DNA from: Lama guanicoe
Lineage: Eukaryota
Reading direction: 5' to 3'
NCBI GenBank assembly: GCA_013239625.1
Contig: MU055452.1
Span: forward strand, 909,394 to 973,393
Length of the DNA: 64,000 nt
Part shown: piece by piece, positions 35,594 to 40,000 of the stretch
How positions within the stretch are numbered: position 1 is the first letter of the stretch
How the letters are laid out: every line of letters starts with the position of its first letter
Notes under the pieces: generated by a model
What the model was told of the DNA's origin: nothing
Database searches by the model: none
What the model saw: the letters and a program-made list of their open reading frames with translations, nothing else
Program-made: the position numbers and the translations under genes

Positions 35594-36023
35594 TGTCAAT
35601 GAAAATTCAATCAATTATCAAGTTAAGAAGAAAAAAAGGGAATTTTATTCGAGCCAAACTGAGGATTATTACCCAGGAAGCAGATTCTCAGAAAGCTCTG
35701 AGAACTGCTCCACCTGTTAAAAGTTGAAGGCACAGCCATATATGGTTTTGAGACAAAAGATCATACATCAAAATGACATATTGATATTTTACATAAAATT
35801 CACCAAGGATACATAGTCCAAGGCAAGCAGCAAGTCACCACACCCCCCTACAGAGCTGGGAAAGAACATTATTCTTTTTAAGACATTACATTGCTAGTAC
35901 CAGAAGAAAGAAAAATAATTGATCTTTATGGTTGAGCAGGCACTCTTCTCTGAGGTCTGGTTAATGTGTAATGCAGATGCACACTGCATGTTAGGGAGGG
36001 AGGAGGCCCCAACAGACAGAGAA

Positions 36024-36361
36024 TTTTTTTTTTTTGAGTTACTGCTATTTTTAATTACAAAAAGATGCTGAAGTAAACTACAAATACAACACAAGATACA
36101 GAATGGAAAGAACTGGCATTCTTTGGAACTTAAAGATTTTTGCCTTAAGTTCTTGAACATATTTCATAGTCTTTAGATTTTCAAATGGATGTATTTTTAT
36201 ATCATCCAGGCAAAGCAGGAAAGAAATCTTCATGTCTGTTACTGGCAATATTGAAAGCAGAGGAGATGGATTGAGACCAAGAGTCCTGTCCCATCAAAAT
36301 ATCCTGCGTTTTATGGCTGGAGCAAACCTTTGTAGTTACTTTCATATTTTGTGGCTTTGGC
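36024..36361 (-). other. L1 3'-transduced unique sequence with its own poly(A) tail
   Basis: T12 at 36024-36035 and minus-strand ATTAAA at 36050-36055; lies inside the same TSD as the adjacent L1. Confidence 0.8.
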
Positions 36362-37074
36362 TTTTATTTTTTTTTAATTGAAGTATAGTCAGTTTATAAT
36401 GTTGTATTAATTTCTCATTTCTGGTGTACAGCATAGTGATTCAATCATACACATATATATTTCTTTTCATATTCTTTTTCATTTCAGGCTATTACAAGAT
36501 ATTGAATATAGTTTCTTGTGCTATACAGTAAGACCTTGTTTATCTGTTTTATATATTGTAGTTAGTATCTGTAAATCCCAAACCCCCAATTTGTCCCTCC
36601 ACCCTCCTTTTCCCTTCTGGTAACCGTAAGTTTGTTTTCTATGTCTTTGAGTCTATTTCTGTTTTGCAAATAAGTTCATTTGTGTCATTTTTTTAGATTC
36701 TACATATAAGTGATATCATATGGTATTTGTCGTTCTCTTTCTGGCTTACTTCACTTAGTATGATAATCTCTAGGTCCATCCATGTTGCTGTAAATGGCAT
36801 CANNNNNNNNNNNNNNNNNNNNNNNNNNNNNNNNNNNNNNNNNNNNNNNNNNNNNNNNNNNNNNNNNNNNNNNNNNNNNNNNNNNNNNNNNNNNNNNNNN
36901 NNNNNNNNNNNNNNNNNNNNNNNNNNNNNNNNNNNNNNNNNNNNNNNNNNNNNNNNNNNNNNNNNNNNNNNNNNNNNNNNNNNNGTATCTTTTCGAATTA
37001 GGGTTTTCTCCAGATAGATGCCCAGGAGTGGGATTGCAGGATCATATGGTAAGTCTATTTTTAGTTTTTTAAGG
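36362..37074 (-). mobile_element. 5'-truncated artiodactyl-type L1
   Basis: ttttttaattgaagtatagtcagttt...ctggtgtacagcatagtgattca...ttacaagatattgaatatagtt...cccaggagtgggattgcaggatcatatggta; TSD aacagacagagaatttt (36011-36027) / aacagagagagaatttt (37075-37091). Confidence 0.93.
36803..36984. other. Assembly gap or masked block (182 N)
   Basis: Run of N. Confidence 0.99.
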
Positions 37075-40000
37075 AACAGAGAGAGAATTTTATGTTTAAA
37101 TTCTTTCTTATCTTGCTTTATTTAAAATAAAATTTTATTTCATCATTTGCATTTTAGAACAATTCCTATTTAATGGGCAGGGCTGAATAATGTGCTGCTA
37201 AAACGGGTTGTAGTCCTGCCTCAATTTGGGGAATGCACACTGAGTTGGAAATATTCCCAAATTCCAAATCCTGAGTCCTAACCTTGTATGATTAAGCTCT
37301 CACTCCCTGAGGAATTCAGGAGAATAAGCCTGAAAACCAGTCTGGTCCTGGCAGTTTGAGGGAGGCTTATAGCCAGGTAGCCAGCTGCCTACTTTCATCT
37401 GAGTAGGTTTTAACTTTTAATGTGGTATTAACATGTATATATAACTAGAGCTATTGGCCACTACACATGTCTTTTTTTCTACCATCTGATCTAAAGCAAT
37501 TTTATTGTCTAAAAATTTTATAGTTACAAGAGGAGACATTGAGGTCATAAGTTTGCAGCTGCCATCTGCCAGCAGACACTGCTTCCAGAATGGCTGGTGG
37601 CATCTCAAGTATGACAGTTCAGAAAATCAGAGTTCTCATCAATTCAGGAACATGTCTGAAATCAAGTCCACAATGGGCACCCAGTGTTTCACCTTGAATG
37701 TCTGAACCACAGCTACTCCATTTTGATCTTCAAATGCATTCCCCTCCTAAAGGTCAAAGCAGATGTACAATGCATGTACAAAAGGTCATAAAACAGGCTG
37801 CTTTGGTCAGTAAAGTTAAGTCAAACCATGCAGAAGCCAAATGACTTCCCCATACCTCAATATGTGCAGACTTTCCTATCATTTCCCCTTCTCATTAAAA
37901 ATATTTTAATATAAATCATTGATGATTAAAAATATCTGTCCCTCAATACTGGGGTGGTGGCCCTTGCTCCAGGTTTAGATCATGTCCCTCAGTGCTAAGC
38001 CTCCTTTATATATTTATCCACGTTGGGGGAAAACTAATCAGATATTGGGAACAGGCTCAGAGGTATGTTAATGGAGAAACACTTCACAGCCCATATATTT
38101 TATCACTTATACACAATTGTTACATAAGCATCATACATATGCTTTTAGCAATTGACTTAAAGAAAGCATTGTTATACCTCATGAGTAGTTATACTCTATG
38201 ACAATTCCATTAGAAAATTCTCTTTCTATCCTAAACACTGGGGGAAATATTGATAGGGAGACAAACATTTGGTAAACAGCTCAATTAGAAAACATAGATT
38301 AAAGGCCAGTAATATTTCAGACAAAACCAAAAAACTAACCATAACTAACCATATGGTTCATTCAATCCATGTAATCAATCCCCTTTACCAACAGTTCCAT
38401 GAAATCAGACTTTTCATTAGAATTTTAAAATATCTTACCCAACTCAGCAGTGTGATTTAAGAAAAAAAAAAAGTACTTGTCAAAAAGCCCTTTTTATGAA
38501 TCTTCTTGAAGATGAAACAGTTTTGCAAAGCAAGAGCTTAACTGTCTATGAATGACAATAGACCCCAAAAGGCAAGGTAAAAGATCCCATTACAGTGTTT
38601 TTGACAAAGAAGCTTAACCAAGTTGCTGTGACATGCAACATTCTAAGGCAATAACGAGAATCATGACTGACAGCATTATGCCAGGACATATCCAAATTTC
38701 AGGAACTCCACGTAATTTCTAGAATATCTATACTAACAACATTTATCCATACCGTATAATCTGAGGAGGCTTATCACTCATTTGACAATGCTTCCCATGT
38801 AATTCAACATACCAACCAACCCCAGTTAGTTTAATATTTCTCTCTGAGATGTCTCAGGAGCCCTCTGAAGCATCCCAAAGCCAGTTGAAGTCAAAAGAGC
38901 ATTAATTAGAACTTAATACAAAGTTTGTCAAAAATATTGAAAAGTTTCACAAAATCTGTCTAAGTAAACTTGTTCTCTTAACAGAAAGAAAGCAAATTCA
39001 GTCCTTCACCAGACCACTTTAAACAAAATCCATTTACCTAATTAAGTTTCATCTAATCTCAGCCCAACCATGCACAGAACTCCTTTTTTAGGGCTCCACT
39101 TCTGCAAACCTTCCATAATTTTCTGTATTCTGTATTCGTATATTAGTTTGTCTCTTATTTTTTTCCATCTAGAAACAACCAGCTCTGGGACCAAATCACT
39201 TCCTTTTGCCTTAACAAAATCCAACTCCATTCCTCATACATTTTTTCACTCAAAACATGTATCTTACTTTCCTACTGTATACCAAGATGTTTCCTTTATT
39301 ATTTCTAGTGGCCTAAATTACACATTTAAATTGGAATCCTTAACTCTTAAAAATCTTAACCTCTAGTGAATGTTTCAGTATCTTATGTGTTTGGAAATGA
39401 CTGAGCTATTCAACTATTCAATAAACTTCCATCATTTAACCCAATCTAGCACCAACTCCAAAATTTCACGTCACCAAGTATCTAAAGAGATCGCCTTTAA
39501 GTAGACATTCCAAAAACATAATCATTTCCAAAGAGTTCACCCAAAAGCTCTTATATCACCCGTACACAATTCATAAGAATTTCATCATTCCAAGCTAATT
39601 AATGTCTTTCTTTCTGCTGACAAACTCTGCAACAGAAACATGAACATCTTGACCTAAGTACAATAAAAGACATGTCTGTATTGATTATACCAACAAGCTT
39701 AAGCTAGCTTTAATATCAGATTATCAATACTGAATATTTCCTAGATCACAGTAGCCTGAAATTTGTTCTGTCTAGTTTCTTTTACTTAGAAGTATTTAAT
39801 TTGTAAGCCATTACTTTTCAGTCAATTACACAGAACTCATTTACAAGTTAATTTTTTATGTAAAGACAGACAGAACCAGAGATCTCAGTTTTTCTGCTTC
39901 AGTTTAAAAAAAAAACAACTTTGGTGTTTTTTTCTTTTTGAGAGCCCAGGTAGCCATTTACATCTCAAAGGCACAGGAAGAGAAATGCAAATCTCTCCTC

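What the first reader, a model, noticed from the sequence alone, without database searches (positions are those of the whole stretch)
36011..37091. L1 3' transduction: ~330 bp of foreign unique DNA carried inside one TSD
Seen on the minus strand: a 5'-truncated L1 (37074 to 36362) with its own A tail, then ~326 bp of non-repeat-looking sequence (36361 to 36036) ending in ATTAAA and a second A12 tail. The whole unit is bracketed by one 17-bp TSD (aacagacagagaatttt / aacagagagagaatttt, 16/17), and the host LTR resumes after it. Established: this is the architecture of L1 read-through 3' transduction. Inference: the transduced tag identifies the source L1 locus and may mark a family of sibling insertions in camelids.
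Basis: partly seen in the sequence, partly recalled or inferred. Interest (0 to 1): 0.7.

Follow-up and report, generated by a model that had tools for sequence, protein, structure and literature searches.

The report
Old parentless L1 3' transduction
A dead LINE-1 jumping-gene fragment sits here with 326 bases copied from a single distant intron; the parent element that likely carried them is no longer at that intron, so this is a clean but ordinary fossil of a known process.

Summary
The architecture is real. A 5'-truncated L1 3' end with its own A tail, 326 bp of non-L1 DNA, ATTAAA and a second A tail lie inside one 17-bp TSD (16/17) at an L1-type T|AAAA site of an older LTR. The tag maps to one other place in the main assembly, C55230:10335080-10335405, 85% identical end to end. 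That place lies antisense in a 229-kb intron of a CHGN-family gene (CHSY3 by recall). Tag versus source differs by 14.1%, L1 versus relatives by 14.0%, so both date to one old event. Two first-reader predictions fail. No L1 lies upstream of the source: a 'parentless' transduction, the common case in dogs (PMC13141329, PMC7980453). No sibling family was found: the one 97% look-alike is a 238-bp contig of a class that duplicates main-assembly places (3 of 3 controls), and 4 of 4 public runs show one copy. Open point: the source junction lacks an A-rich endonuclease site. The scan has noted similar transductions elsewhere in this genome. Ordinary; low interest.

The parts
37075..37091 (-). Target-site duplication, upstream copy (17 bp); begins T|AAAA, an L1-endonuclease-type site
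   Evidence: present once in uninterrupted LTR copies
36376..37074 (-). 5'-truncated L1: end of ORF2 region and 3' UTR (partly N); 7.3-8.2% from the majority state of its relatives; carries a private 7-bp duplication near 36410-36423
   Evidence: (40 of 9166 candidates scored; the 39 other matches 83-87% identical); Pfam found nothing on two short pieces, so the ORF2 assignment is by recalled sequence
36362..36375 (-). Inner poly(A) tail of the parent L1 (A9-T-A4); the L1's own signal here reads ATTAAA
   Evidence: relatives end at the same place
36036..36361 (-). Transduced tag, 326 bp, copy of G000:C55230:10335080-10335405(+)
   Evidence: 46 substitutions in 326 columns, 2 gap columns
36050..36055 (-). 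ATTAAA poly(A) signal, 14 nt before the tail; reads ATTACA in the present-day source
36028..36035 (-). Outer poly(A) tail (A8; A12 together with the four A's of the TSD); starts at a CA in the source, which goes on GT-rich
   Evidence: 1-2 nt shorter in 4 of 4 runs
36011..36027 (-). Target-site duplication, downstream copy (17 bp, one mismatch)
37092..37150 (-). Host LTR-like repeat, short upstream part (start approximate)
35594..36010 (-). Host LTR-like repeat, downstream part, ending ...GACA; other copies 75-82% alike, so older than the L1

Best explanation
A truncated L1 and 326 bp copied from one distant intron sit inside one target duplication, most likely because a full-length L1 that once stood in that intron was transcribed past its own poly(A) signal, and that parent was likely never fixed. 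Shown: one TSD around both parts, two A tails, a unique source collinear with the L1's sense, a poly(A) signal and CA cleavage point at the tag's end, equal ages of both parts, no L1 at the source today. Inferred: the parent L1 inserted antisense into the intron on one haplotype; read-through ended 326 nt downstream at a cryptic signal; the RNA was reverse-transcribed at a T|AAAA site in an older LTR and truncated after about 1.04 kb; the offspring went to fixation while the parent allele was lost by drift or selection. The copy has no promoter or whole ORF and is presumed inert. Age about 16 million years by the rate cited in PMC8605555, about 40 by a recalled rate of 2e-9 per year.
For: TSD and site. 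Unique source with ends exactly at the two tails. Source inside a 229-kb intron between two CHGN exons on the opposite strand (C55230:10401947-10402081 and 10171050-10172561), so the tag is not the 3' end of that gene's mRNA; no Rfam match at the source. Age match: tag versus source 14.1% (95% interval 10.5-18.4, K2P 0.16); L1 end versus 31 relatives mean 14.0%, relatives among themselves 14.6% (these were mostly best hits, so biased low). LTR-tail-tag-L1 order confirmed by one contig with a single other letter in 4 of 4 runs carrying 4 different organism labels. No N within 27 kb of the source junction. Parentless sources are the rule in dogs: 17 of 18 (PMC7980453, passages) and 24 of 27 (PMC13141329, passages); they are also seen in apes and macaque (PMC4862182, passages).
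Against: The parent L1 was not seen. The empty source reads GCAGAT|GCC at the junction, with no A run, which is not a canonical endonuclease site; a near-canonical C|AGAA site would need one later substitution in each lineage (inference). The source has ATTACA where the copy has ATTAAA, and no outgroup was available to say which is ancestral. The source locus was seen only in this assembly: its contigs did not lay along the tag, so its state in other individuals is unknown. The published parentless cases are young and polymorphic; this one is old and apparently fixed.
Confidence: 0.8

Rival explanations
1. Template-switch or ligation chimera: L1 reverse transcriptase began on a polyadenylated antisense intronic RNA and jumped to the poly(A) tail of an L1 RNA; no L1 ever stood at the source.
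For: No L1 and no A-rich endonuclease site at the source junction. L1 chimeras with cellular RNAs are known (10.1101/2025.02.02.635956, passages).
Against: The chimeras in the passages seen have the cellular RNA 5' and the L1 3', the reverse of this order. No RNA family matches the source, and the tag is antisense intron. Parentless transductions are common and give exactly this layout.
Confidence: 0.08
2. Two insertions: the L1 came first, and the tag (an orphan transduction or retrocopy) later landed inside its A tail, where a duplication made only of A's would be invisible.
For: The sequence alone cannot exclude an all-A duplication; the inner tail holds T|AAAA steps.
Against: It needs a second rare event in a 20-bp target. 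The two parts have the same divergence, though the interval is wide. No tag-less allele appeared in 4 of 4 runs (contigs drop rare variants).
Confidence: 0.05
3. Ordinary transduction from a parent L1 that was fixed and later removed from the intron by a deletion.
For: It would explain the non-canonical junction and the abrupt loss of likeness upstream of the tag.
Against: The deletion would have to end within a few bases of the tail-tag boundary. No L1 remnant lies near the junction.
Confidence: 0.06
4. The tag is part of a small L1 sub-lineage's 3' end, or marks a family of siblings; the 238-bp contig C28530 would be one such sibling.
For: C28530 holds the same L1 end, private duplication, tail and first 133 bp of the tag at 97%. 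It keeps the older state at 3 of 6 substituted sites, and at 3 covered sites it differs from all four runs, so it looks like a diverged lineage rather than read errors.
Against: A sibling from the same parent should differ by about 14%, not 3%. 3 of 3 other contigs of the same size class duplicate one main-assembly place at 100, 96 and 98%. Depth over the tag is flat and single-contig in 4 of 4 runs. No other copies turned up. C28530 holds no flank, so it cannot be placed.
Confidence: 0.03

Closest known systems
'Parentless' L1 3' transductions in dogs (PMC7980453, passages; PMC13141329, passages)
   Same: L1 plus unique tag inside one TSD; the tag maps to a place with no adjacent L1 (17 of 18 and 24 of 27 cases there).
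   Different: Those are young, dimorphic and at least 95% identical to the source, and the parent is thought still to segregate. This one is 14% diverged and present in 4 of 4 runs, so the parent is probably extinct.
Germline L1 3' transductions in humans and other primates (PMC9311842, passages; PMC4862182, passages)
   Same: Read-through of a weak L1 poly(A) signal to a downstream signal 10-40 nt before the cut; tag length inside the reported 8-997 bp range; source loci without a donor L1 are a described class.
   Different: Another mammalian lineage and L1 subfamily; old and fixed rather than polymorphic; no multi-offspring source here.
L1 chimeras with cellular RNAs (10.1101/2025.02.02.635956, passages)
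   Same: L1 and unique sequence inside one TSD, same orientation.
   Different: There the foreign RNA lies 5' of the L1; here it lies 3', behind an intact L1 tail.

Membership tests
Partnered L1 3' transduction | One TSD around L1 plus extra DNA, at an endonuclease-type site | tested here: met
   17 bp, 16/17, T|AAAA; single in uninterrupted LTR copies
Partnered L1 3' transduction | Complete L1 3' end with its own A tail before the extra DNA | tested here: met
Partnered L1 3' transduction | Extra DNA maps to another genomic locus and is not subfamily consensus | tested here: met
   one source in the main assembly; absent from 29 related L1 loci and L040
Partnered L1 3' transduction | Poly(A) signal 10-40 nt before a second tail that the source does not encode | tested here: met
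   ATTAAA 14 nt before the tail; the source goes on without an A run, though its hexamer reads ATTACA
Partnered L1 3' transduction | L1 part and tag of the same age | tested here: met
   14.0% versus 14.1%
Partnered L1 3' transduction with a surviving parent | Full-length L1 directly upstream of the source | tested here: not met
   none in this assembly; hence the 'parentless' class
Parentless L1 3' transduction | Empty source junction is a plausible L1 target | tested here: inconclusive
   no A run at the junction; two substitutions from a near-canonical site
Parentless L1 3' transduction | Parent allele seen in another individual or species, or source continuous in outgroups | not testable with these tools
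   no related genomes are held; source contigs did not lay along the tag
Transduction family (several offspring of one source) | Two or more insertions with different TSDs sharing the tag | tested here: not met
   C28530 has no flank and fits assembly redundancy
Processed mRNA retrocopy with later L1 insertion | Tag is the sense 3' end of a gene and/or an inner TSD flanks the L1 | tested here: not met
   tag is antisense intron; no inner duplication among the repeats listed
Named L1 or LTR subfamily (Repbase/Dfam) | Match to a curated consensus | not testable with these tools
   no repeat library held; an L1MA9-like 3' end is a recalled resemblance only

The most novel reading that the evidence does not exclude
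No L1 ever stood at the source: the insert is a reverse-order chimera in which L1 reverse transcriptase copied a polyadenylated antisense intronic RNA and then switched to the tail of an L1 RNA. If so, some of the many 'parentless' transductions in mammals would be template switches rather than records of lost source elements, recognisable by a source junction without an endonuclease site.
Probability: 0.08. Interest if true: 0.5.

Novelty: new member of a known kind. Interest (0 to 1): 0.2.

Why it matters
Little as a single locus: it moves no exon, appears inert and repeats a process described in humans, apes and dogs. Its modest value is as a fossil. It marks the spot where an active L1 probably stood tens of millions of years ago without being fixed. 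A genome-wide harvest of such old parentless tags would count lost source elements and test selection against full-length intronic L1s. It is also a usable presence/absence marker for the lineage.

Tried and rejected
(1) Sibling family: a 26-nt pattern at the tag's 3' end gave the window and one unrelated place. That pattern would miss many 14%-diverged copies, so DNA searches with the tag and the source were added, with no further copy; the searches skip very common words and give lower bounds. (2) The private 7-bp duplication as a lineage marker: 3 matches. The third, L040, shares only 1 of 25 derived sites with the window's L1, the fewest of 31 rows, and lacks the tag, so it is independent. 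(3) Segmental duplication of the window locus: 4 kb of flank has no close paralogue. (4) A 93-bp exon-like piece 220 bp from the source, first noted as an exon: neither open frame matched Pfam or PDB; the claim was dropped, and the host gene was found from CHGN exons instead. (5) Spliced transduction: a CAG lies 2 nt before the source junction, but there is no pyrimidine tract and no donor in the L1 tail. (6) Pfam on two short ORF2-region pieces: no hit. (8) The 5' TSD and most of the L1 were not covered by the laid stretch (35950-36410), so they rest on the assembly alone. (9) Szak 2003, Pickeral 2000 and Xing 2006 were not held; I saw the first two only in reference lists, and the third is recalled. 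Searches for a report of this locus or of camelid L1 transductions found only a general mention (PMC8605555, passages); searches added nothing. Subscription papers and supplements were not seen.

Full report
Observation. On the minus strand the window reads: short LTR start, 17-bp target copy (37091-37075), L1 from 37074, inner tail A9-T-A4 (36375-36362), 326 bp of other DNA (36361-36036) with ATTAAA 14 nt before its end, an A run, the second target copy (36027-36011, one mismatch), and the rest of the LTR. The 17-mer occurs at 16/17 or better only at these two places on that strand of the window. Four of the twelve outer A's belong to the target copy, so the tail is A8. In 16 of 19 other copies of the host LTR both flanks join directly around one copy of the target, which begins T|AAAA; two more look contiguous by eye and one has another insert. 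One contig in each of 4 of 4 public runs, under four organism labels, spans LTR, tail, tag and L1 end (about 35958-36390) with one other letter and at the depth of other single contigs. The 3' half of the structure is therefore no assembly error; the 5' target copy rests on the assembly alone.

The L1. A search with its 3' 441 bp had 9166 candidates; of 40 scored, the 39 other matches were 83-87% identical. It is 7.3% from the majority state of its relatives, whose mean is 8.1%. Over the 3' UTR end it differs from 31 relatives by 14.0% on average, and they differ among themselves by 14.6%. It is an old, 5'-truncated copy. None of the 29 best relatives taken as loci, nor L040, carries the tag, so the tag is not part of the subfamily's 3' end.

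The source. The tag has three matches in the 2.05-Gb genome: itself, C55230:10335080-10335405 (85%, all 326 bp) and a 238-bp contig. A search with 1.7 kb around the source shows that likeness to the window begins and ends exactly with the tag, and that the source has no paralogue. There are 46 substitutions in 326 columns, 34 of them transitions (14.1%, interval 10.5-18.4, K2P 0.16), the same as the L1 part. The copy's tail starts at a CA of the source, which goes on GT-rich without an A run; the hexamer there reads ATTACA. The source lies between two CHGN-family exons on the opposite strand, 229 kb apart; the peptide is CHSY3 by recall, not by a call. The tag is thus antisense intron, not an mRNA end, and no Rfam family matches it. 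No L1 adjoins the source. In 228 kb around it the nearest same-strand L1 3' fragment upstream is 17 kb away, and the nearest N gap is 27 kb away.

Siblings. None was found. Contig C28530 shares the L1 end, a private 7-bp duplication, the tail and 133 bp of tag at 97%. A true sibling of the same parent should differ by about 14%. The window's flank has no close paralogue, and the four runs show one contig over the tag. Of 20 neighbouring contigs of the same size class fetched, three were searched; 3 of 3 duplicate one main-assembly place at 100, 96 and 98%. C28530 is therefore best read as one more redundant, diverged version of this same locus. It keeps older states at three sites, so it is probably not mere error, and its origin stays unexplained.

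Mechanism. Most likely (0.8) a full-length L1 inserted antisense in the long intron on one haplotype and was read past its own ATTAAA signal to a cryptic signal 326 nt on. The RNA was inserted by target-primed reverse transcription into an older LTR and truncated. The offspring was fixed; the parent was not. The parent itself is inferred, not seen. The one result against this reading is the source junction, GCAGAT|GCC, which has no A run; a near-canonical site would need one later change in each lineage, or the parent used an atypical site. That leaves room for a template-switch chimera (0.08), a later deletion of a fixed parent (0.06) and a second insertion into the A tail (0.05). By the rate cited in PMC8605555 (2.5e-8 per five-year generation; passages) the event is about 16 million years old; by a recalled 2e-9 per year, about 40.

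Comparison. It works like, and meets the tested features of, an L1 3' transduction as described in humans and other primates (PMC9311842; PMC4862182; passages seen). Sources without an adjacent L1 are a named class, 'parentless', and the majority in dogs: 17 of 18 (PMC7980453) and 24 of 27 (PMC13141329; passages seen). It fails the test for a surviving parent and for a transduction family. The L1 chimeras in the passages seen have the foreign RNA 5' of the L1 (10.1101/2025.02.02.635956). Three searches of the held library found no report of this locus or of camelid transductions beyond a general mention; subscription journals and supplements were not seen. The scan's own notes list several similar transductions elsewhere in this genome (unchecked; two of them led me to PMC4862182), none with this tag.

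Verdict. Observation confirmed; interpretation partly supported. A new, well-resolved member of a known kind, of value mainly as a marker of a probably extinct source element. Interest 0.2.

Noticed in passing
L058:985-1497 (G000:C55221, about 10470580-10471095): Another copy of the same LTR family carries a different insert of about 490 bp, AT-rich, at the same AAAATTCT site, apparently with a short duplication. It may be a second L1-mediated insertion at this motif.
   Followed up: partly
G000:C28524, C28530, C28533, C28535 (238-bp contigs): Tiny contigs duplicate main-assembly places at 100, 97, 98 and 96%. Divergence of 2-4% seems high for alleles; it may mean foreign or strongly diverged DNA in the assembly. 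Such contigs can mimic paralogues.
   Followed up: partly
L005:627-719, minus strand (C55230:10335626-10335718): GC-rich 93-bp segment with a pyrimidine tract plus AG and a GT, in the sense of the CHGN gene, deep in its long intron; two open frames, no Pfam or PDB match. Possible cryptic exon or conserved element.
   Followed up: partly
window:36326: The assembly has A where all four runs, C28530 and the source have C; a private variant or an assembly error.
   Followed up: yes
window:36036-36361: The 3' part of the tag is closer to the source (92% over 106 bp) than the 5' part (82% over 129 bp for C28530); not tested for significance.
   Followed up: no
window:15765-16143 and 40838-41244: Two local head-to-tail duplications: about 190 bp at 84% and about 165 bp at 71%.
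   Followed up: no
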